64,000 nucleotides of DNA from Escherichia phage phiWec186, in sequence record LC739535.1, one strand, 5' to 3'. The position numbers and the translations under genes are program-made. The notes beneath the pieces were generated by a model, which was given only the letters and a program-made list of their open reading frames with translations, ran no database searches and had not been told where the DNA came from. Positions 3,275-57,602 of the stretch are shown here, one piece after another; within the stretch, counting starts at the first letter, position 1; every line of letters starts with the position of its first letter.

Positions 3275-4183
3275 ATGTCCGTAATTAATACTGAAACTGA
3301 TCGTAAAGGCAAAACTGTAACTTATGCAACTGGTGTTGTAGACTACGTTAAACTGGATAAATTCGCAGAGCCTAAAACCTTCCAATGGGATGGTAAGTCG
3401 ATTGTTTCTACTCACCGTGCTTCACTCGTTCTGAAAGAAAAGGGTGCCAAGCAGGATGCAAAAGGGACGTGGATTAGCCTGGGTGATATTGAACTGAAAG
3501 AAGGTTACGAAAATCTTCAGGTTAAAGATGGTGATACTTGGATCACTATCGAAAAAGGTGTTGAAGTTAGTATTGATATCGACAAAGTTGATACCAAAGG
3601 CGACAAAACTTACTACAATACCAAGAAATCTCGTATCACTGTTCTTTCTACTGAAGGTGTTCAGAAGAAAGAAAATAAATCTGGTGGGACTGGCGTTTCA
3701 GGTAATACTGGAAACAAACAATCCTTCAAAAAACGTGATACCGTAGGTCTTGAGACTGGTCATGCAGTTAACGGAGCTTTGGAACTGATTCGTAATGGTG
3801 TGAAAGGTGAAGCGTTTGATATTGCAGGTGTGGTTCAGTCTGCTACTGTGACTCTGAAAGCTGAAGTGGCTAAAGAGCGTGGCGTAGATATCAGTGATTA
3901 TGATCTGGGGGCTTCTGTTGGTCACGCTGTTCTGAATGCCTGTAAAGATCATTCCGGTAAGACTGTTTCGGTAGAAGATTTGATTGAAACTGCTCGTGAA
4001 GTTCTGGCACTTTCTGACAAGGTAGCTAATGCCATTCGTGGCGCAGCAGAACAACCTAAGAAAGAAGAAGCCAAGAAAGAGCCTAAGAAGGAAGAACCGA
4101 AGCAGGAGCCTAAACAAGAACCTGCTCCTCAACAAAATCCAGAAGAACCTCCAATGGACTTCGATGATGATATTCCATTCTGA
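3275..4183 (+). CDS. ssb: single-stranded DNA-binding protein
   Basis: C-terminus ...PPMDFDDDIPF is the canonical bacterial SSB acidic tail; Gly/Lys/Glu-rich linker before it; ATG at 3275 preceded by GAGGAG (the track's GTG start at 3254 is less likely). Confidence 0.75.
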   Translation: MSVINTETDRKGKTVTYATGVVDYVKLDKFAEPKTFQWDGKSIVSTHRASLVLKEKGAKQDAKGTWISLGDIELKEGYENLQVKDGDTWITIEKGVEVSIDIDKVDTKGDKTYYNTKKSRITVLSTEGVQKKENKSGGTGVSGNTGNKQSFKKRDTVGLETGHAVNGALELIRNGVKGEAFDIAGVVQSATVTLKAEVAKERGVDISDYDLGASVGHAVLNACKDHSGKTVSVEDLIETAREVLALSDKVANAIRGAAEQPKKEEAKKEPKKEEPKQEPKQEPAPQQNPEEPPMDFDDDIPF

Positions 4184-23396: not shown

Positions 23397-23425
23397 CTTG
23401 ACTACCATGATCCGCCTTGCTACAC
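23397..23425 (+). promoter_or_regulatory. sigma70-like promoter (TTGACT, 17 bp spacer, TACACT)
   Basis: Near-consensus hexamers read directly, followed by AAGGAGG and ATG at 23452. Confidence 0.55.
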
Positions 23426-23451
23426 TGTATTTATTAACTAAGGAGGAAATT

Positions 23452-24465
23452 ATGGGCGTGATTAAAGGTTGGGACATTCAGAAGAAAGAATGTGAAGAAG
23501 TGGCAAGACCAGGTATTACTGTTCTTGGATTTGTTGAACCGTGGAATGGTGCACATACCAAACTGATGCTGAAATGTGAGAAGCATGGGGAATGGAATAC
23601 AACCTCCATCAACAACTTCAAAAAGAATGGTTCTGGTTGTAATGGTTGTAGAGCGGATATATGTGGTGCAAGAGCAGAAGGGAATAGCTTTGCAAGTAAA
23701 AATGCTATCTCAGATGAGCAACACATTAAGGATTTCTTGGCTACCGGATTGTTTGCAGAGGGGACAACCTTCGTCAATACAGGTGTGAAAACAAAAGGTA
23801 ATCACAACTGCGTGTGGAAAGTAAGTTGCCCTGTTTGTGCTGTGGATGTATATTCTCAAGCTGGTTTATGTGATGGTAGTTTTGAAGGTCTGACTACACA
23901 CCTTAAGGCTGGAAAGGTTCCTTGTCGTTGCTCTCCACGTCATTGCTATTCTAAAGACCAATGGTTGTTTAGATTTCAGTTAATGTGTGAAGAAAAAGGT
24001 TATACTTTCATCAAGGCCATCTACGAAGGGGAAGCATACTCTCATGGAGATGTTGAGTATGCTTGTCCAGAACACGGCTCACAACGCATGACTGTGAAGA
24101 ACCTCATGTCAGGTAAAGGTTGTCCAGAGTGTGCCAATAAAACACAACAGTTCTGTTATATCAATGAAGTGTATGATGAAGATAATAATCTCTGCGCTCT
24201 TAAATTTGGAATTGCCAATGATGCTGAACGTAGGATCAAAGGTCAGAACTCGAAGAATGCTTTCACAATGCAACAGAAAGCTGTCTACTTCTTTGATGAT
24301 ATCAAGTCGTGTCGAGCAGCAGAAAGGAAGTGTTTGAAGATGTTGAAGTGCGGTGTTGTGAATAAATTTCAATTGCAGGATGGACACACAGAAACAACCC
24401 ATCTGGACAATTACGAAATTATTGAGGCTATTTACGAAAGTTTTGGAGGGGTGTTACAGAAATGA
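23452..24465 (+). CDS. Cys-rich protein with three zinc-ribbon-like repeats and a C-terminal GIY-YIG/T5orf172-like domain; putative free-standing homing endonuclease
   Basis: Three repeats of C..HG...G.GC..C; C-terminal CYINEVYDEDNNLCALKFGIANDAERRIKGQ resembles GIY...YIG...R...E; opposite strand to the surrounding tail genes, with its own promoter. Confidence 0.45.
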   Translation: MGVIKGWDIQKKECEEVARPGITVLGFVEPWNGAHTKLMLKCEKHGEWNTTSINNFKKNGSGCNGCRADICGARAEGNSFASKNAISDEQHIKDFLATGLFAEGTTFVNTGVKTKGNHNCVWKVSCPVCAVDVYSQAGLCDGSFEGLTTHLKAGKVPCRCSPRHCYSKDQWLFRFQLMCEEKGYTFIKAIYEGEAYSHGDVEYACPEHGSQRMTVKNLMSGKGCPECANKTQQFCYINEVYDEDNNLCALKFGIANDAERRIKGQNSKNAFTMQQKAVYFFDDIKSCRAAERKCLKMLKCGVVNKFQLQDGHTETTHLDNYEIIEAIYESFGGVLQK

Positions 24466-24467
24466 AA

Positions 24468-24492
24468 AAAGGGGCCGAAGCCCCTTTCTTAG
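24468..24492. terminator. bidirectional rho-independent terminator
   Basis: GGGGC-CGAA-GCCCC hairpin with an A-run upstream and T-rich tract downstream. Confidence 0.6.
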
Positions 24493-26444
24493 TTACCACC
24501 AGATTGTCCACTTAAAGTAGCTAAAGTTAAACGGTTGAAAACATTGTTACCACTGTTCTGAATACGAGCATCCAACATATTACCAAACTCCGAAGACGGG
24601 TTGATTGTTACGTTGATCAGATCACTCGGAATAGCAATCGTGTTTTCTACAATAGGTTGGTTACGAGCCAGATTAACGTTTGGCGTATAAGCTGTTTCAC
24701 GCAAATTCTCTAAAGGATTCCCGAAACCGAAAGCATGTGTTCGAGTTTCTTCTCCTCGGAACATTCTTCCAACGTCTTGAGTATCAATTCCAGTCCACTT
24801 ATAAAGGAAGTCGGCTACTGGGTTGGTATCTCCTGATTGTGTTGCGGCGTACAATTTGTCCGGTATAGTTTTATTAGGATCAGAATCCGGTCCGAAGATA
24901 GATGGTAAGTTTGTCACTAACCATTTATTAATATCTTCCGTGATACCGATAATCTCTGTACCAAACTTAGCAACATTCAGTGTGGCATTTGCAAACTCCA
25001 CCCCAAGATTCTTGGCAAAATTGTCCAAAGATTTAACGTTATCTAACCAAGATTCGTCTTTAGGTATTGCACTCATAAATCCTTCCAGGAAATAGTTCTG
25101 CATCCCTTGACCAACCAAACCTATTGTTGCAGTTAAACGTGTGTACTGTTTAGAAGCTTCCATTTGCTCATTAGTCAATGCAGCACCAGTACGTTGAAGC
25201 ATACGGAGGGTTTCTTGGAAGCCTTCTCCGTTCTTGCTAAACATACGTTGGTAATGCATGAGGTCATCTCCAAGGTTCTCAAGAAGACGACCAATCTGTG
25301 CCGAGTTCATGCCGCGACGCTCACCTTCATTCACAGTTGCCTGGATGAAAGCTAACGGATCGTTCTGCATGTGCTTAATTTGCGAAGGGTTCCAGCCGAA
25401 CATGTTCATGATATCGTTGATACCGTTGTCCCCGCCACGCCATTTTCCTTTCTTCTCGTCCCATTCAGAAGCCATCATCGAGTTACCTAAACGTTCACGA
25501 ACGTCTTTAAGGTTATCGATTGACTTGATAATGTTTGCCGAGTCAACACCGTTCTGTTCACCCCAAGCAGTCATTGTCATAATGGCGTTGGCGTTTGCCT
25601 GAACGTTCTCTGCACCACGACCTACAAACTTGATACGATCATTAGCATTTTGCAAAGTGTTCCCTACAACAGAGCCACCTGCAAATAACCCTGCACCGAT
25701 CATAGAAGAAACCATCATACGAGGGTTAAGACCTAAAGCACCATCTCGCATTTGGGAATACTTACGTTCCTTATCTCGACGTTGTTGTGCCAATTCTCGT
25801 TTATGGTTACGTTCAATATCGCGCAACTCTTTATCACGCATACGTTGACGTTGCTTGGCTTCTGCTTCCAGTTCTCGACGAATCCTACGGCGACCACGAA
25901 CCTCATCCTCAATATCTTTCGTTTTTTCTCTGTGGGATTTACGAAGGTTATCAAGCTGATGGGCCAGAGTTTGGTTCATACGTTGAAGAGTGATATCTCC
26001 ACGTTTGTATGATTCTACAGAGGCATCCATGATTTGTTTTGCTTGGCGTTGTGCATCTATGGAAGCTTTGGTATATTGCATACCACGCTTCTCAAAATTC
26101 TCCATGCGGAGGTTGCCTAAATCGTTACGACGAGCTTGGAGTTCTGCTGCGCGTTCTTCTGGTGTTTTCTTACCTGGTTTCGTTGGACGACCAGGACCGG
26201 AGGTAGTTCCACCACCTTTTGGAGCAGAAGGGGGAGCAGGGCGAGCAGGGAAAGTCTGCGCTTTACGCATTTCTCTTTCGATCTCTTTCATCTGCTGCCT
26301 AAATTTACTCATGTTTAAGGTAGGTTGGATTTTTTCAGCGAACCTTTTAATACTTTCGACAGAATCTTTGGCCTCTTTGAGACTGTTCTTGTCCACCTTA
26401 AATGTGACTACGTTACTGATTTTTGAGGCATTAATATCTAACAA
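24489..26444 (-). CDS. tail tape measure protein
   Basis: 651 aa; long Arg/Glu/Lys-rich helical N-terminal region and Gly/Met-rich middle; follows the chaperone gene. Confidence 0.7.
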   Translation of the reverse strand: MLDINASKISNVVTFKVDKNSLKEAKDSVESIKRFAEKIQPTLNMSKFRQQMKEIEREMRKAQTFPARPAPPSAPKGGGTTSGPGRPTKPGKKTPEERAAELQARRNDLGNLRMENFEKRGMQYTKASIDAQRQAKQIMDASVESYKRGDITLQRMNQTLAHQLDNLRKSHREKTKDIEDEVRGRRRIRRELEAEAKQRQRMRDKELRDIERNHKRELAQQRRDKERKYSQMRDGALGLNPRMMVSSMIGAGLFAGGSVVGNTLQNANDRIKFVGRGAENVQANANAIMTMTAWGEQNGVDSANIIKSIDNLKDVRERLGNSMMASEWDEKKGKWRGGDNGINDIMNMFGWNPSQIKHMQNDPLAFIQATVNEGERRGMNSAQIGRLLENLGDDLMHYQRMFSKNGEGFQETLRMLQRTGAALTNEQMEASKQYTRLTATIGLVGQGMQNYFLEGFMSAIPKDESWLDNVKSLDNFAKNLGVEFANATLNVAKFGTEIIGITEDINKWLVTNLPSIFGPDSDPNKTIPDKLYAATQSGDTNPVADFLYKWTGIDTQDVGRMFRGEETRTHAFGFGNPLENLRETAYTPNVNLARNQPIVENTIAIPSDLINVTINPSSEFGNMLDARIQNSGNNVFNRLTLATLSGQSGGN

Positions 26445-26458
26445 AGTATTTCCTCCTG

Positions 26459-27210
26459 TTAGTGTATCATTTTCTTAAACATGTCTTGCATTTGAGAAGC
26501 GTTCTCTTGTTGCTTTCTCTTTATTGAAGTGTCTTTGCTGTACAGAGCTTCGATATAATCCTCATAGGTGAGGTACTCGTACATTCCTAACAGATAATCC
26601 ACCCCGTATTGATCCAGGGTGGAGCGTGTTTCCGAGGTATTCTTCACAACCTTGCAGAGAATGATCTCATACCACTTCAACGTAAGAGTCTTCTCTGCGG
26701 TTTCCATCGCGTGACGAATGGCTGGACTTAGTTCGTTGCCAGATCCTGAACCGCTTGGAACTGGGTCAACAGTTTTCCGAAACCTCGTTTGAAAAAAGGG
26801 CCATAGTTCACCTCAAGAACTTTTGCTGTCAAGTCGAGGACAAGTTCTGGGTGAGCAAAGAAGAGTTCATCGAAGTTATCAGATACATTATGTCCTGCTT
26901 CGGTATATACTTCGTCTAAGATCTTACGGAGGAACACGGTAAGGTTCTTCTCTTCAAGACCAGAGAACAATTGAATAAGTGCCATTGCAATACGAGATTC
27001 CAGATCTTCATCAGCCGACATAAGGGCGGTATTGTACATGGTCATAGGTACAGCTAAAACGCTACCGAGTTCTGGAATACGTTCGAAGACCTTTGAAGGA
27101 CTCCACTTCAGAATACGGAAGGTTACGAAACGGGTTTCATCCAAGTAAATTTTTACGATTTCTTCTGGACGTGCATATTGTTTGATAGTATCGTCTTGTT
27201 GTTCTGACAT
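26459..27210 (-). CDS. tail assembly chaperone frameshift fusion (G-T-like) via programmed -1 frameshift
   Basis: Slippery heptamer T_TTT_TTC (0-frame CCT TTT TTC) at 26791-26797; the -1 frame runs open from there through the downstream ORF to 26459. Confidence 0.6.
26728..27210 (-). CDS. tail assembly chaperone (G-like, 0-frame product)
   Basis: Lies between tube and tape measure; contains the slippery site near its 3' end. Confidence 0.65.
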   Translation of the reverse strand: MSEQQDDTIKQYARPEEIVKIYLDETRFVTFRILKWSPSKVFERIPELGSVLAVPMTMYNTALMSADEDLESRIAMALIQLFSGLEEKNLTVFLRKILDEVYTEAGHNVSDNFDELFFAHPELVLDLTAKVLEVNYGPFFKRGFGKLLTQFQAVQDLATN

Positions 27211-27224
27211 AGTTTCCTCTCTTT

Positions 27225-27252
27225 TTAGTTAAATAAAAAGGGCATTTCTGCC
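27225..27252 (-). terminator. rho-independent terminator (minus strand)
   Basis: AGGGCA-GAAA-TGCCCT hairpin followed by TTTTTATTT on the minus strand. Confidence 0.5.
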
Positions 27253-27261
27253 CTTTCGTTA

Positions 27262-27741
27262 TTATTGAATGGTCAGTGCAGAGATAGAGTTAAGAACACT
27301 CATACCTACACCAACTTCATTACGTAACAGGCTTGCATCTTTCAGACCGATAACCCATTGGTTCTCTGTAATCATTTCGCCCATGGTGTCTTCAGGTTGA
27401 GACTGAATCCAACCAATGGTGCTAATGTAATAGCCACGAGGATCTTCCAGATAAACGCTGAATGCTACTTGACGAGTAGAATACATTGTTTGAGCATAAG
27501 TTGCAAGAACTTCGTTCGCTGGAGATGTACGTTGCAGAGAAATAGTCATGGTGCCGAGACGGTTGCGGCTAAGAGCCAGAGAAACATCGCCATCAGTACC
27601 AGCATATGGGTTAATAATATCGTTGGCTTTTGCGATTACAATTTTAGTGTCGGTTGCAAAACCCCACGGCTCCCATCCACCCAGGGACAGAACGATTTGG
27701 GAAGGATCATAGGCCATTACGCCAGTAAGCATTTTATCCAA
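27262..27741 (-). CDS. tail tube protein
   Basis: 159 aa, directly downstream of the sheath gene and upstream of the chaperone. Confidence 0.6.
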   Translation of the reverse strand: MDKMLTGVMAYDPSQIVLSLGGWEPWGFATDTKIVIAKANDIINPYAGTDGDVSLALSRNRLGTMTISLQRTSPANEVLATYAQTMYSTRQVAFSVYLEDPRGYYISTIGWIQSQPEDTMGEMITENQWVIGLKDASLLRNEVGVGMSVLNSISALTIQ

Positions 27742-27787
27742 TTTGGATCTCCTTTAGGGATAAGGCGAGGTTGCCCCCGCCAAATTA

Positions 27788-29161
27788 TTAGTTTGCAGTA
27801 CGGTTGGTCAGGACGTGAACCTGAACCTTAACGTAATGGAAGAATCCTGCGTAAACGTATTCAATCTTCATGCCGTCAACCAGACGCTGATTAATCTGCG
27901 AATCAGTCATGTCAGCACGAGAAGGAAGGTAAACGATAGGCTTCAGGTCAACACGCAGTCCAGTTTCTTCTGAAACAACCACTTCGTTAGAAATAGAACC
28001 GTTCAGAATACCAACTTGGATCGGGTTAGCCAGAACCGCTTGTTTAATCAGAGCCAGACCATTGGAAGTAGCACGAACACCACCACCCAACATTGACTGC
28101 TGTTTGAACAGAGTGAACAGAGATTCTTCGGTACGAGCTTTGAACCACAGAGCGTGAACTACGTAGTCAGCAAAGAAACCGTTAACCATCAGACCATCGC
28201 GGTAGAACAGAGTTGCGTGTTCTTTACGGTAGATGTTACCATTCTGTTGAACAATGTTATTTTCCGCAGTCTGACCAAGCTTCTCGATTTCAACTCCAAC
28301 CAGAGTTTTACCGTGTAGAGTGGTAGTACCAGGCTGTGCAGAGCAGATAGAACCAACTACGGCAGCTTCTGGGAATACAGAGTCCGCGTCGCTCATCCAC
28401 AAGGCGAAACAGGTGTTGACGTAACCGAGGTCATTCAAACGCTCAAGAACGTTGTCTTCGGCTTTAGTAGTGATACCAACGTCTGAACTGGAGAAGAAGT
28501 ATACTTTATCATTCTCTTCTACCCAAGCAGCTACATCAAGAATATCTTCAACAGCGTGGGAGTCAGACAGAACCCAGAACCAGCTACTATCGATATCGTG
28601 CAGAGCGGCGATATCTTCGGTAATGCCGTTAGCGTAGACGGTTTCTTTAGCGAAGCCGTTTGCATCCAGAGAAGCGTATTTGCCTACAACTGGAGAAACA
28701 GTGATCACAGCACCATCGTTAGCAACGGTAAACAGACCACCATAAACTACGTCTGCATTGATCATTTCTGTCAGACCAACAACGATTTCTTGTGCTGTTG
28801 CAGTGTCGTCAGCAATGAATTTGAAATCTTTCTTGTTCTTGCCTTCTTTGATAGTGACAACATATGTTGCACTGTCTTCAACTGCTGGGGTCAGGGTAAA
28901 GTTTGTTACTTCACGCTTACCAACAATCACTTGACTTGGTGCGAATAATCCGTTAAACAGTTTAACTGCCATGATATAGGCTGGATCATTAACACCGTAA
29001 CCCGCTTCCAGAAGTGCGTCAGAAGAGGTGTAATATTCAATCGCGTTACCAGTGACAGTCTGACCAGTAAGGATCAGGGGAATGTCAAACTGGGTTTCAC
29101 GGATTGATGTAGCTCCGTACAGTAAAGTTACGGTTGCTACCTTTTCACGAAAAGTTGCCAT
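27788..29161 (-). CDS. tail sheath protein
   Basis: 457 aa immediately upstream of the tube gene; conserved sheath-tube-chaperone-tape-measure order. Confidence 0.65.
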   Translation of the reverse strand: MATFREKVATVTLLYGATSIRETQFDIPLILTGQTVTGNAIEYYTSSDALLEAGYGVNDPAYIMAVKLFNGLFAPSQVIVGKREVTNFTLTPAVEDSATYVVTIKEGKNKKDFKFIADDTATAQEIVVGLTEMINADVVYGGLFTVANDGAVITVSPVVGKYASLDANGFAKETVYANGITEDIAALHDIDSSWFWVLSDSHAVEDILDVAAWVEENDKVYFFSSSDVGITTKAEDNVLERLNDLGYVNTCFALWMSDADSVFPEAAVVGSICSAQPGTTTLHGKTLVGVEIEKLGQTAENNIVQQNGNIYRKEHATLFYRDGLMVNGFFADYVVHALWFKARTEESLFTLFKQQSMLGGGVRATSNGLALIKQAVLANPIQVGILNGSISNEVVVSEETGLRVDLKPIVYLPSRADMTDSQINQRLVDGMKIEYVYAGFFHYVKVQVHVLTNRTAN

Positions 29162-29194
29162 TTATGCTCCTGTTAGAAACTTATTCCAATGAAT

Positions 29195-29893
29195 TTATTC
29201 GTTGGGGTTGTTAAATAATGATCCATCATCAGTTACTGGTGAGTATTCGCCATTAACCTCATGAACTACGTAAATTCTATCCAGAGTTAAATCCAGAGGT
29301 GTGGGATCATTGTAGCTATCTCTGAATGATCGAATATGCATGTTGACAGCCTCTATAGGGGTTGTCATAATATCCTCAATACTCATACGAGTGTTGAAGG
29401 TCATAATCATACGCGCTCTAACTTCAGTCTTATCTCCATCCAGAACTGTGTTTGCCTGTGTGATATTTGTTGCTGACAGGAAACCCATCCCTTTGGAATA
29501 GAGATGCTTGTATTTTAATTCCTCTGCACCACGTAGAGCAGCCAGAACATAGCTCAACAGAGTAGTAGGTCTTCCACGGAAAGCCATGAGTTCAATCTCA
29601 TAGGTATTGTCCATCTCGTAGGAAAACATGTCTTGCTCTATTTTGCCTCGGTAAGACCACCCACCAGAATCACTGGAGGTGATAATACGTAGTGCCAGGT
29701 ATGGATTGGTAGGTTGGACGAACGGTTTGTCCATCACGTAAATTGGCAATCCAGTTAATTCTTGAAGGAAACTACCTATATTAAGATAGATAGCGTTCTC
29801 ATACGCTTCGATTTGTTCGTAGATATTAGCCAAAGTTTCCTCCCTCTTGATCGTAATCCCATGTATTGTTTTGATCGTCCAATATGGCGACAC
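29195..29893 (-). CDS. hypothetical virion protein (head-tail joining region)
   Basis: ORF between head and tail modules. Confidence 0.45.
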   Translation of the reverse strand: MSPYWTIKTIHGITIKREETLANIYEQIEAYENAIYLNIGSFLQELTGLPIYVMDKPFVQPTNPYLALRIITSSDSGGWSYRGKIEQDMFSYEMDNTYEIELMAFRGRPTTLLSYVLAALRGAEELKYKHLYSKGMGFLSATNITQANTVLDGDKTEVRARMIMTFNTRMSIEDIMTTPIEAVNMHIRSFRDSYNDPTPLDLTLDRIYVVHEVNGEYSPVTDDGSLFNNPNE

Positions 29894-56950: not shown

Positions 56951-56984
56951 GTTAATATAACAATACTGGAAGAGAGGAGGGATT

Positions 56985-57602
56985 ATGAAGATAGTTTGTG
57001 ATTGGGATCTGGTGGTTGCTCCACTGGATGTTGCTTGGCTGGAATGGTTGGTTAAAGTTAGTGGAGATTGTGTAGGCTTCTCCGAAGCTGTCAAGAATGT
57101 TGACTACGATCTTACTAAATACTTCCCAGGTTTCCGTGAGAAGTTTAACATCGATCCTTACGGCTTTCTGGATAATCCCCATCTCTATGACACGATGGGA
57201 TGTATCAAACCTATGGCTGACTTCTTAGAAGGTATTGTGAAAGAGGGCGATAATGCACTTATTGCAAGTGTGACTAAAGGTGGACACCTTAGCTCAAAAC
57301 ACAAACATGTTTTAAGAACTTTGCCAACCATTGATTTTGGTAAAGGTTCTGGTAACGGTTTCTTTGCCACAAAAGAAAAATACCTGTTGCCTTGTGATAT
57401 TGCCATAGATGATAGGGCAGAAAACCTGTTGTATTTTCCAGATCATGTTGTTAAGATTTATTACAATACGATGTATAAAGATTTGTATTTGGAAGAATTA
57501 AAAAAGAAACCAAACGTAGTTGTCACGGGTTTGTACAATCAAGCAGAAACCTGTTGGCAGGTTTATTCAATGTTAAAAGAACGAGGAGAAATTAATGTCT
57601 AA
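56985..57602 (+). CDS. HAD-superfamily phosphatase, 5'(3')-deoxyribonucleotidase-like
   Basis: N-terminal IVCDWDLVVAP (HAD motif I, DxDxV) and CDIAIDDRAEN (motif IV, DD). Confidence 0.45.
   Translation: MKIVCDWDLVVAPLDVAWLEWLVKVSGDCVGFSEAVKNVDYDLTKYFPGFREKFNIDPYGFLDNPHLYDTMGCIKPMADFLEGIVKEGDNALIASVTKGGHLSSKHKHVLRTLPTIDFGKGSGNGFFATKEKYLLPCDIAIDDRAENLLYFPDHVVKIYYNTMYKDLYLEELKKKPNVVVTGLYNQAETCWQVYSMLKERGEINV

What the first reader, a model, noticed from the sequence alone, without database searches (positions are those of the whole stretch)
26459..27210. Programmed -1 ribosomal frameshift in the tail assembly chaperone gene
The heptamer T_TTT_TTC (0-frame CCT TTT TTC AAA) sits 21 codons before the stop of the 160-aa chaperone ORF. 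The -1 frame is open from that point through the downstream 82-aa ORF, predicting a fusion of about 245 aa. Both ORFs lie between tail tube and tape measure, the conserved location for G/GT-type chaperones.
Basis: partly seen in the sequence, partly recalled or inferred. Interest (0 to 1): 0.5.

Follow-up and report, generated by a model that had tools for sequence, protein, structure and literature searches.

The report
Tail chaperone gene programmed -1 frameshift
This E. coli phage almost certainly makes a short and a long version of its tail-assembly chaperone by letting some ribosomes slip back one base at a conserved TTTTTTC site, which is the ordinary trick of long-tailed phages but is left out of the database annotation of this phage group.

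Summary
The window is Escherichia phage phiWec179 (Phapecoctavirus, Stephanstirmvirinae). On the minus strand the gene order is sheath, tube, 160-aa chaperone (Pfam Phage_TAC_15), 82-aa ORF, tape measure. T_TTT_TTC lies in the chaperone's frame at 26797-26791.

Comparative evidence strongly supports a programmed -1 frameshift:
- In 59 related loci (23 representatives, chaperone identity down to about 28%) the heptamer is invariant.
- The base before it is always T, although the amino acid there varies (Pro, Cys or Ser).
- The -1 frame has 0 stops in 2,678 downstream codons, where about 229 would be expected.
- An Arg-Phe-Arg motif encoded in the -1 frame just after the site is invariant.
- The ATG of the 82-aa ORF is not conserved.
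- A more distant relative (Barbavirus) has the lambda-type G_GGA_AAG near the same place instead.

No stimulatory RNA structure was found downstream. A Shine-Dalgarno-like GAGGTGA lies 10 nt upstream.

None of 22 database records inspected joins the two ORFs. A 2025 paper describes the same feature in sister clades. This is a new, unannotated member of a textbook class. There is no experimental proof. Interest is low.

The parts
26728..27210 (-). Short chaperone ORF (TAC-N, 160 aa, 18.4 kDa; stop TAA at 26730..26728). It is the normal-frame product and the analogue of lambda gpG.
26791..26797 (-). Slippery heptamer T_TTT_TTC (read CCT TTT TTC in the normal frame). This is the proposed -1 shift site.
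   Evidence: It is invariant and in phase in 59 of 59 related loci. The preceding codon is CCT, TGT or TCT, so the amino acid varies but the third-position T never does. Codon identity among same-residue pairs is 253/253 for both Phe codons. The H_HH.U_UU.Y class is among the most efficient -1 motifs in E. coli (PMC4066793).
26794..26800 (-). Overlapping second heptamer C_CCT_TTT. Together with the first it forms the run CCCTTTTTTC. A shift here gives the same fusion protein.
   Evidence: It is present in the Stephanstirmvirinae-type loci only; Vequintavirinae have TGT or TCT at this position.
26459..26791 (-). Segment encoded in the -1 frame (110 codons plus TAA at 26461..26459). It comprises an RFR motif, a Gly/Ser/Asp/Pro-rich linker and a conserved helical 'T-like' domain. 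Joined to residues 1-140 it gives the 250-aa, 29.0-kDa long product (TAC-NC).
   Evidence: There are 0 stops in 2,678 -1-frame codons in 23 representatives, against 0.0855 stops per codon in the same frame upstream. RFR is invariant in the alignment of the -1 products.
26459..26707 (-). The 82-aa ORF as annotated in GenBank (BDU12003.1, 'hypothetical protein'). It is most likely only the C-terminal part of the long product and not a separate gene.
   Evidence: phrog_16039, function unknown. Its ATG is not conserved: the first ATG in the -1 frame lies anywhere from codon 28 to codon 107 after the site in relatives. There is no Shine-Dalgarno sequence before the ATG. The phi92 record annotates ribosome binding sites for genes 132 and 134 but not for gene 133.
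26728..26812 (-). The 85-nt window in which both the normal and the -1 frames are open. A shift must happen inside it to yield the fusion.
   Evidence: for phiWec179 the -1 frame is open from offset 1899, which is window position 26812, and the overlap is 85 nt.
26808..26814 (-). Shine-Dalgarno-like GAGGTGA, 10 nt upstream of the heptamer. It may stimulate the shift, as in dnaX. This is inferred only.
   Evidence: Duplex with the 16S 3' end is -9.9 kcal/mol, and none of 370 other 9-mers sampled in the 400 nt upstream is as good. An equally strong element at the same spacing is found in 13 of 23 representatives. It is weak in Certrevirus, KP13-16 and SSBI34.
27262..27741 (-). Tail tube gene (context).
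   Evidence: PDB 21vm_A Phi92_gp131, E 9e-93; 9cuy_J and 9cb9_B 'Tail tube protein', E 1e-29.
27788..29161 (-). Tail sheath gene (context).
   Evidence: phrog_205 'tail sheath', E 7e-92; Pfam DUF3383.
24489..26444 (-). Tape measure gene (context). It starts at TTG 26444, preceded by GGAGG. The -1 ORF ends 14 nt before this start.
   Evidence: phrog_16051 'tail length tape measure protein', E 1e-296; sequence.
27237..27256 (.). GC-rich hairpin with flanking T and A runs between the tube and chaperone genes. It looks like a terminator and may lower chaperone transcription relative to the tube gene.
   Evidence: The terminator scan reports it, on the + strand. The phAPEC8 record annotates a terminator at the same place on the gene strand. 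The scan's total count is no higher than in shuffles (5 found against 4.4 expected).

Best explanation
The 160-aa ORF and the annotated 82-aa ORF form one recoded tail-assembly-chaperone gene. Most ribosomes read the 160-aa ORF to its stop and make the short chaperone (TAC-N, 18.4 kDa). A minority slip one base backwards while tRNAs occupy the run CCC-UUU-UUU-C. In that event tRNA-Phe on UUU and UUC re-pairs with UUU and UUU; in this subfamily tRNA-Pro and tRNA-Phe on CCU and UUU can do the same. Those ribosomes continue for 110 codons in the -1 frame to the stop at 26459. The result is a 250-aa long form (TAC-NC, 29.0 kDa) with the same first 140 residues, followed by an RFR motif, a flexible linker and a conserved helical C-terminal domain. 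By analogy with lambda gpG/gpGT and P2 E/E+E', both forms would coat the tape measure protein through the shared N-terminal part. The extra domain of the rare long form would recruit the tube protein, and neither form would stay in the virion. What is shown here is the sequence anatomy, family membership and evolutionary conservation of the site, its phase and the open frame. What is inferred is the slipping itself, its efficiency, the roles of the two proteins, and stimulation by the upstream GAGGTGA.

For: Conservation: TTTTTTC is in phase in 15 of 15 GenBank relatives and 41 of 41 IMG/VR loci, with chaperone identity down to about 28%. The base before the heptamer is always T although the residue is Pro, Cys or Ser. 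Synonymous-codon identity rises from about 0.31-0.58 along the gene to 0.75-0.91 at the site and the six codons after it.

Open frame: the -1 frame has 0 stops in 2,678 codons downstream in 23 representatives, against 0.0855 stops per codon in the same frame upstream and 0.085 in the +1 frame downstream. The -1-encoded RFR is invariant while the overlapping normal-frame residues vary between GF[GA] and GL[GD].

No independent start: the ATG of the 82-aa ORF is not conserved and lacks a Shine-Dalgarno sequence. slur16 and SSBI34 have no annotated ORF at all in the roughly 315-nt gap.

Uniqueness: this is the only heptamer in the window with a long -1 extension.

Distant relatives: Felixounavirus SP116 has the same in-phase T_TTT_TTC, and its -1 ORF ends exactly at the tape measure start. 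Barbavirus lacks the T run but has the in-phase lambda-type G_GGA_AAG a few codons downstream.

Literature: H_HH.U_UU.Y heptamers are among the most efficient in E. coli (PMC4066793). The G/GT frameshift is widely conserved in long-tailed phages (PMC5009743). The same recoding was proposed for the sister clades Vandenendeviridae and Andersonviridae (PMC12846349).
Against: There are no protein, ribosome-profiling or reporter data for this phage or its subfamily. No downstream stimulatory structure is predicted: z-scores are -0.21 and +0.13 for the window, mostly between about -1 and +1.8 in 39 relatives, and the consensus fold is -4.6 kcal/mol with essentially no covariation support (1 of 18 pairs shows a compensatory change). 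Rfam finds nothing. The upstream Shine-Dalgarno-like element is missing in several lineages. The Phe-Phe residues are invariant at the protein level, so part of the heptamer's conservation is protein constraint. In Nankokuvirus and Acinetobacter phage AM24 the T run is in a different phase, so the shared element across the wider group is a T run and not strictly a heptamer. In this phage an ATG 18 nt after the chaperone stop could also permit some independent or re-initiated translation of the 82-aa ORF.
Confidence: 0.9

Rival explanations
1. The same fusion protein is made by transcriptional slippage. RNA polymerase occasionally adds one extra U while copying the T6 run, and the altered mRNA is then read normally into the downstream frame.
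For: The shared element across the wider group is a T run whose phase differs: T5 in phase 1 in Epa24 and T6 in phase 1 in AM24. Homopolymeric U7 and A7 runs are avoided in all three frames in E. coli genes, possibly because of slippage (PMC4066793). An insertion of one U would give exactly the same 250-aa protein.
Against: The run is only six T's (five in Epa24) and has never lengthened in 59 loci. Productive bacterial transcriptional slippage generally needs longer runs (my own knowledge, not tested here). In the two subfamilies closest to the window the run always has the X_XXY_YYZ phase. The homologous Barbavirus gene has no T run but carries an in-phase G_GGA_AAG, a purely ribosomal signal.
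Confidence: 0.05
2. These are two ordinary, separately translated genes: a chaperone and an 82-aa protein that starts at the ATG at 26707, possibly by re-initiation after the chaperone's stop 18 nt upstream. On this view the heptamer is just the codons of a conserved Phe-Phe.
For: This is how all 22 inspected records annotate the locus. In phiWec179 an ATG is well placed 18 nt after the stop. Phe-Phe is invariant at the protein level.
Against: The ATG is not conserved, and in phi92 the first ATG in the -1 frame is at codon 104 of 112. Annotated starts differ between records: a TTG inside the conserved helix in phi92, and none at all in slur16 and SSBI34. There is no Shine-Dalgarno sequence. 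The -1 frame stays open and its peptide stays conserved (RFR, then L-S/T/N-P-x-I) upstream of any start, back to the heptamer, in every genome. The third-position T before the heptamer and the TTT TTC codon choice are frozen beyond what the protein requires.
Confidence: 0.03
3. It is a sequencing or assembly indel in a homopolymer. On this view the true gene is a single 250-aa ORF, or a pseudogene.
For: Homopolymer runs are common sites of indel errors.
Against: The identical two-frame arrangement with exactly six T's is seen in 59 independently assembled loci from isolates and metagenomes. None of the 44 homologues found among 5.8 billion proteins covers more than 60% of the fusion, so no single-ORF version exists in that set.
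Confidence: 0.01

Closest known systems
Phage lambda gpG/gpGT tail assembly chaperone frameshift, and the conserved frameshift of dsDNA phage tail genes (Xu, Hendrix and Duda 2004)
   Same: There are two overlapping ORFs between the tube (major tail) gene and the tape measure gene. [quoted passage not shown] The -1 extension adds a second domain, and the downstream ORF has no start of its own. No 3' RNA structure is evident. The role of the two products is described in PMC5009743.
   Different: The heptamer is T_TTT_TTC, not G_GGA_AAG. The phage has a contractile tail. There is no detectable sequence similarity to gpG; the family is Pfam Phage_TAC_15. The ratio of products is unknown here.
Phage P2 E/E+E' frameshift in the FETUD tail operon (Christie et al. 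2002)
   Same: It is a contractile-tailed phage of enterobacteria with the gene order sheath-tube-chaperone-tape measure. It uses a -1 shift on a U-rich heptamer; I recall T_TTT_TTG, which was not checked here.
   Different: The protein families are different. P2's efficiency is reported as 2- to 3-fold higher than lambda's, and here it is unknown.
The -1 frameshift proposed for the TAC locus of Vandenendeviridae (Pakpunavirus Adele) and Andersonviridae (PMC12846349, 2025)
   Same: These are sister clades with homologous structural modules. The downstream 'hypothetical protein' ORF is reinterpreted there as the C-terminal part of TAC-NC. There is a conserved T-run motif (GTTTTT) near the 3' end of TAC-N, and the -1 frame is uninterrupted in all genomes. 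I confirmed the same layout, and the same RFR motif, in Epa24 and AM24. Felixounavirus SP116 shares the layout and the in-phase T_TTT_TTC, though there the motif reads HFQ.
   Different: In the passages I retrieved, that paper analyses this locus only in Vandenendeviridae and Andersonviridae and does not apply the analysis to Stephanstirmvirinae or Vequintavirinae. Here the site is a full in-phase heptamer (CCCTTTTTTC in this subfamily, with no G). In Nankokuvirus it is a U_UUU tetramer context.
E. coli dnaX -1 frameshift
   Same: A Shine-Dalgarno-like element lies about 10 nt upstream of the slippery heptamer: GAGGTGA here, AGGGAG in dnaX (from my own knowledge).
   Different: dnaX also has a strong downstream hairpin and shifts at about 50%. 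No hairpin was found here, and the Shine-Dalgarno-like element is not conserved across the clade.

Membership tests
G/GT-type tail assembly chaperone with programmed -1 frameshift | A pair of overlapping ORFs lies immediately between the tail tube (major tail) gene and the tape measure gene. | tested here: met
   Minus-strand order: sheath 27788-29161, tube 27262-27741, TAC 26728-27210, -1 ORF 26459-26812, TMP 24489-26444.
G/GT-type tail assembly chaperone with programmed -1 frameshift | A slippery X_XXY_YYZ heptamer lies in the phase of the upstream ORF, inside the region where both frames are open. | tested here: met
   T_TTT_TTC at 26797..26791, inside the 85-nt overlap, with C_CCT_TTT overlapping it. 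The motif class is efficient in E. coli.
G/GT-type tail assembly chaperone with programmed -1 frameshift | The shift site, its phase and the open -1 frame are conserved in diverged relatives, beyond what the protein sequence requires. | tested here: met
   59 of 59 loci carry it. The third-position T before the heptamer is invariant with Pro, Cys or Ser. Synonymous identity peaks at 0.75-0.91. There are 0 stops in 2,678 -1-frame codons.
G/GT-type tail assembly chaperone with programmed -1 frameshift | The downstream ORF lacks a conserved initiation signal of its own. | tested here: met
   The position of the first ATG varies from codon 28 to 107. There is no Shine-Dalgarno sequence before 26707. 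No ribosome binding site is annotated for phi92 gene 133. No ORF is called in slur16 or SSBI34.
G/GT-type tail assembly chaperone with programmed -1 frameshift | The upstream product is a tail assembly chaperone by family or fold. | tested here: met
G/GT-type tail assembly chaperone with programmed -1 frameshift | Two proteins with a common N-terminus are actually produced, with the long one as a minor fraction. | not testable with these tools
   This needs a western blot, mass spectrometry or a reporter assay. Predicted sizes are 18.4 and 29.0 kDa, and the junction peptide is VLEVNYGPFFQTR.
G/GT-type tail assembly chaperone with programmed -1 frameshift | Both products are required for tail assembly and are absent from mature virions. 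| not testable with these tools
There is only a weak hint.
dnaX-type stimulated -1 frameshift (upstream Shine-Dalgarno-like element plus downstream hairpin) | A Shine-Dalgarno-like element lies about 10-14 nt upstream of the heptamer. | tested here: inconclusive
   GAGGTGA lies 10 nt upstream at -9.9 kcal/mol and is the best match in the gene. It is strong in only 13 of 23 representatives, and it overlaps conserved Glu-Val codons.
dnaX-type stimulated -1 frameshift (upstream Shine-Dalgarno-like element plus downstream hairpin) | A stable RNA structure lies 5-9 nt downstream of the heptamer. | tested here: not met
   Fold z-scores are -0.21 and +0.13 for the window. There is no consistent structure in 39 relatives. 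The consensus fold is -4.6 kcal/mol, involves the U run itself, and has essentially no covariation support (1 of 18 pairs compensatory). There is no Rfam hit.

The most novel reading that the evidence does not exclude
The site may be an unusual kind of phage frameshift signal that has stayed fixed across an order-level group of myoviruses (Stephanstirmvirinae, Vequintavirinae, Felixounavirus and others). It would work without any downstream RNA structure. Its efficiency would be set by the extended run CCCUUUUUUC, by an upstream anti-Shine-Dalgarno interaction, or by the invariant RFR-coding sequence GGUUUCG just downstream acting at the mRNA or nascent-peptide level. Alternatively, the T run may act through transcriptional slippage in some lineages.
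Probability: 0.1. Interest if true: 0.35.

Novelty: new member of a known kind. Interest (0 to 1): 0.2.

Why it matters
The main value is for annotation. In this phage group, which is widely isolated for therapy work (phAPEC8, phi92, rV5 and PVP-SE1 relatives), the long chaperone isoform is missing from all 22 records I inspected. Its C-terminal half is listed as a 'hypothetical protein' with arbitrary starts, or is not called at all. The invariant heptamer gives a simple rule for correcting hundreds of genomes. It also gives a clean natural U_UUU_UUC site with no 3' structure for measuring frameshift efficiency in E. coli. It does not change what is understood about tail assembly.

Tried and rejected
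1. Downstream stimulatory hairpin or pseudoknot. Folding 60 and 100 nt after the heptamer gave z-scores of +0.13 and -0.21. Folding 39 unique relatives gave no common structure. RNAalifold on 8 Stephanstirmvirinae-type sequences gave only a weak hairpin (-4.6 kcal/mol) that contains the U run itself, with essentially no covariation support (1 of 18 pairs shows a compensatory change). Rejected.

2. The terminator-like hairpin inside the -1 ORF (26623-26598). It is about 170 nt from the site, which is too far to stimulate the shift, and the scan's total count equals the shuffle expectation.

3. The conserved GGTTTCG after the heptamer as an RNA element. It is better explained by dual coding: Gly-Phe-Gly in the normal frame and an invariant Arg-Phe-Arg in the -1 frame. 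Where the nucleotides change (slur16, L037), RFR is kept and the normal-frame residues change.

4. Rfam scan of 26400-27300. The only hit was a sub-threshold snoRNA match, which is chance.

5. Search for an existing fused or join-annotated protein. All 44 homologues of the 250-aa fusion cover at most 60% of it, and none of the 22 inspected records carries a joined CDS.

6. Literature on rV5, phAPEC8, phi92 or Stephanstirmvirinae together with 'frameshift'. Nothing specific was found. The rV5 genome paper mentions neither frameshift nor chaperone.

7. Structure prediction of the fusion.

8. A +1 frameshift. The +1 frame closes after 32 codons.

Full report
**What the window is.** Megablast of 24400-29200 gives a 100% match to Escherichia phage phiWec179 (LC739533; Phapecoctavirus, Stephanstirmvirinae). 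Relatives at about 79% nucleotide identity include phAPEC8; phi92 was recovered through the chaperone protein search (82% identity). In the phiWec179 record every gene in this stretch is called 'hypothetical protein'.

**Checking the observation.**
- All relevant genes are on the minus strand.
- The gene order is sheath (27788-29161), tube (27262-27741), a 160-aa ORF (26728-27210), an 82-aa ORF (26459-26707) and tape measure (24489-26444).
- PHROGs names the sheath (phrog_205) and the tape measure (phrog_16051, E 1e-296).
- The tube matches the solved chain 21vm 'Phi92_gp131' at E 9e-93, and chains named 'tail tube protein' at E 1e-29.
- The 160-aa ORF hits Pfam PF21822 (Phage_TAC_15) at 81.6 bits against a cutoff of 22, and four 'tail assembly chaperone' PHROGs.
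- The heptamer TTTTTTC is at 26797..26791 and is read CCT TTT TTC. Twenty sense codons and TAA follow it.
- The -1 frame is open from 26812 to the TAA at 26461..26459 and contains the whole 82-aa ORF.

The predicted fusion is 250 aa (29.0 kDa), against 160 aa (18.4 kDa) for the short product. A second canonical heptamer, C_CCT_TTT, overlaps the first by three bases, so the slippery run is really CCCTTTTTTC. A shift on either heptamer gives the same protein.

**Is it more than chance?** I took 74 non-overlapping long ORFs of the window (18,843 codons). They contain 48 in-phase X_XXY_YYZ heptamers. Only the pair in the chaperone gene leads into a -1 frame that runs far past the normal stop: 89 codons, with the next best at 27.

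**Comparative evidence: the data set.**
- I collected the locus from 15 GenBank phages. They span Stephanstirmvirinae (phAPEC8, phi92, KP13-16) and Vequintavirinae (rV5-like slur16, SSE121, Ro1, CR8, CB7, F1M1E and others).
- I added 41 IMG/VR contigs.
- Chaperone identity to the window falls to about 28%.
- With three further GenBank records, this makes 59 loci: 50 unique sequences and 23 representatives below 93% amino-acid identity.

**Comparative evidence: the findings.**
- TTTTTTC is present in the same phase in every locus, inside the motif N-Y-G/A/S-x-F-F.
- The residue before Phe-Phe varies (Pro, Cys or Ser), but its codon is always CCT, TGT or TCT. The first T of the heptamer is therefore conserved independently of the protein.
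- Among sequence pairs with the same amino acid, codon identity is about 0.31-0.58 along the first 105 aligned codons. It rises to 0.75-0.91 from the Asn-Tyr before the site to six codons after it. The values are 253/253 for TTT, TTC and the GGT three codons later.
- Downstream of the heptamer the -1 frame has no stop in 2,678 codons summed over the 23 representatives. The same frame upstream has 0.0855 stops per codon, and the +1 frame downstream has 0.085, so about 229 stops would be expected.
- The peptide encoded in the -1 frame is conserved from the first codons after the site. An Arg-Phe-Arg motif is invariant, while the overlapping normal-frame residues change. For example, slur16 has GGTTTAGGA, which reads Gly-Leu-Gly in the normal frame and is still Arg-Phe-Arg in the -1 frame.
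- After RFR comes a variable linker rich in Gly, Ser, Asp and Pro, and then a conserved domain.

**The 82-aa ORF does not behave as an independent gene.**
- Its ATG (Met in 'AMETAEK') is Ile in phAPEC8 and phi92.
- Across representatives the first ATG in the -1 frame lies anywhere from codon 28 to codon 107 after the site.
- Annotators chose inconsistent starts, or called no gene at all, leaving a roughly 315-nt 'gap' in slur16 and SSBI34.
- There is no Shine-Dalgarno sequence before 26707, whereas the chaperone and tape measure genes have GAGAGG and GGAGG.
- The phi92 record lists ribosome binding sites for genes 132 and 134 but not for gene 133.

**More distant relatives, reached through the tube protein.**
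- Felixounavirus SP116 has the same in-phase T_TTT_TTC, and its -1 ORF ends exactly at the tape measure start.
- Nankokuvirus Epa24 and Acinetobacter phage AM24 have a T5 or T6 run in another phase, in a U_UUU tetramer context. The -1 frame again encodes RFR.
- Barbavirus has no T run. It carries an in-phase G_GGA_AAG, the lambda G/GT heptamer, a few codons downstream of the homologous position, followed by a 126-codon -1 ORF.
- Replacement of one canonical heptamer by another argues that ribosomal slippage is the selected property.

**Mechanism and stimulators.**
- In E. coli, H_HH.U_UU.Y heptamers are among the most efficient -1 motifs. U_UU.U_UU.C and C_CC.U_UU.U both exceed 0.1% without any stimulator (PMC4066793).
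- I found no downstream structure. Fold z-scores are near zero for the window, no structure is shared among 39 relatives, and the alignment consensus is weak with essentially no covariation support (1 of 18 pairs compensatory). Rfam has no hit.
- Upstream, GAGGTGA (26814..26808) lies 10 nt before the heptamer and pairs with the 16S 3' end at -9.9 kcal/mol. None of 370 other 9-mers sampled in the 400 nt upstream is as good.
- Equivalent elements occur in 13 of 23 representatives but are weak in Certrevirus, KP13-16 and SSBI34.
- I regard a dnaX-like upstream stimulator as plausible for this phage, but it is unproven and not universal.
- The assembly role of the two products is inferred from lambda (PMC5009743). 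The short form and the N-terminal part of the long form would bind the tape measure. The extra domain would recruit the tube protein. Both would leave before the tail matures.

**Rival explanations.**
- Transcriptional slippage on the T6 run would give the same protein and cannot be excluded by sequence alone. It is disfavoured because the run is short and never lengthens, it is always in heptamer phase in the nearest two subfamilies, and Barbavirus uses a signal with no homopolymer run.
- Two independent genes is how the databases present the locus. This conflicts with the non-conserved start, the absence of a Shine-Dalgarno sequence, the conserved peptide upstream of any start, and the frozen synonymous sites.
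- A sequencing error is excluded by 59 independent assemblies. In addition, none of the 44 homologues found among 5.8 billion proteins is a single-ORF version; all cover at most 60% of the fusion.

**Novelty.**
- The G/GT-type frameshift is textbook (Xu, Hendrix and Duda 2004; reviews).
- A December 2025 paper proposed exactly this recoding, with a conserved GTTTTT motif, for the sister clades Vandenendeviridae and Andersonviridae (PMC12846349).
- I found no paper applying it to Stephanstirmvirinae or Vequintavirinae. None of 22 inspected GenBank or RefSeq records joins the ORFs.
- The finding is therefore a correct and well-supported instance of a known mechanism that is unannotated in this clade. 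It has annotation value but little conceptual surprise.

**Limits.** All of the evidence is computational. The efficiency of the shift, the product ratio, the function of the C-terminal domain and the role of the Shine-Dalgarno-like element are untested.

Noticed in passing
window 23398-24465 (+): This ORF lies on the opposite strand to the surrounding tail genes, just past the 3' end of the tape measure gene (355 aa by ORF scan; 337 aa as annotated). It has three CapR-homology domain hits (Pfam PF21817, E 5e-27), plus weak treble-clef zinc finger and T5orf172 matches. It looks like an inserted DNA-binding or homing-endonuclease-like gene. In PsgM04F and phAPEC8 a tail fiber gene on the same strand as the tape measure gene lies beyond its 3' end.
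   Followed up: partly
window 24465-24490 (-) and 27237-27256: There is a strong terminator-like hairpin right after the tape measure gene (11-bp stem followed by T6). A second hairpin lies between the tube and chaperone genes, where the phAPEC8 record also annotates a terminator. Together they may partition transcription of the tail operon.
   Followed up: no
L001 (OR584014) and one search hits MG065689, MG065682 and others: 'Pseudomonas phage PsgM04F' is 96.7% identical to this E. coli phage over 4.8 kb. Several 'Campylobacter phage' records carry 82%- or 29%-identical chaperones typical of E. coli phAPEC8- and rV5-like phages. The host labels in these records look doubtful.
   Followed up: no
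L062 (Rheinheimera Barbavirus) 3429-3435; L060, L061, L063: Homologous chaperone genes in distant clades use different shift signals at nearly the same place: T_TTT_TTC in Felixounavirus, a T5 or T6 run in another phase in Nankokuvirus and AM24, and the lambda-type G_GGA_AAG in Barbavirus. An Arg-Phe-Arg motif encoded in the -1 frame right after the site is kept in Nankokuvirus Epa24 and Acinetobacter AM24 as well as in Stephanstirmvirinae and Vequintavirinae (in Felixounavirus SP116 it reads HFQ). In Barbavirus it reads VFRIP.
   Followed up: partly
L010 (Pectobacterium phage CB7) 2273-3343; L062 3731-4408: Extra ORFs are inserted between the chaperone -1 ORF and the tape measure gene in CB7 (two ORFs, about 1.1 kb). 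In Barbavirus a reverse-strand 'putative DNA binding protein' sits in the same position. This junction seems to tolerate insertions.
   Followed up: no
L007 (Raoultella phage Ro1) 902-1374: The tail tube gene is annotated as two short CDS (195 and 240 nt) in the RefSeq record, where relatives have one ORF of about 474 nt. This is probably a frameshift error or a mis-call in that record.
   Followed up: no
window 57500 (+), ORF 56984-57602: There is an in-phase A_AAA_AAG heptamer, the most slippery motif in E. coli, 32 codons before the stop of a 205-aa ORF. Its -1 frame closes after 29 codons, before the normal stop, so a shift would only truncate the protein. It is probably incidental.
   Followed up: no
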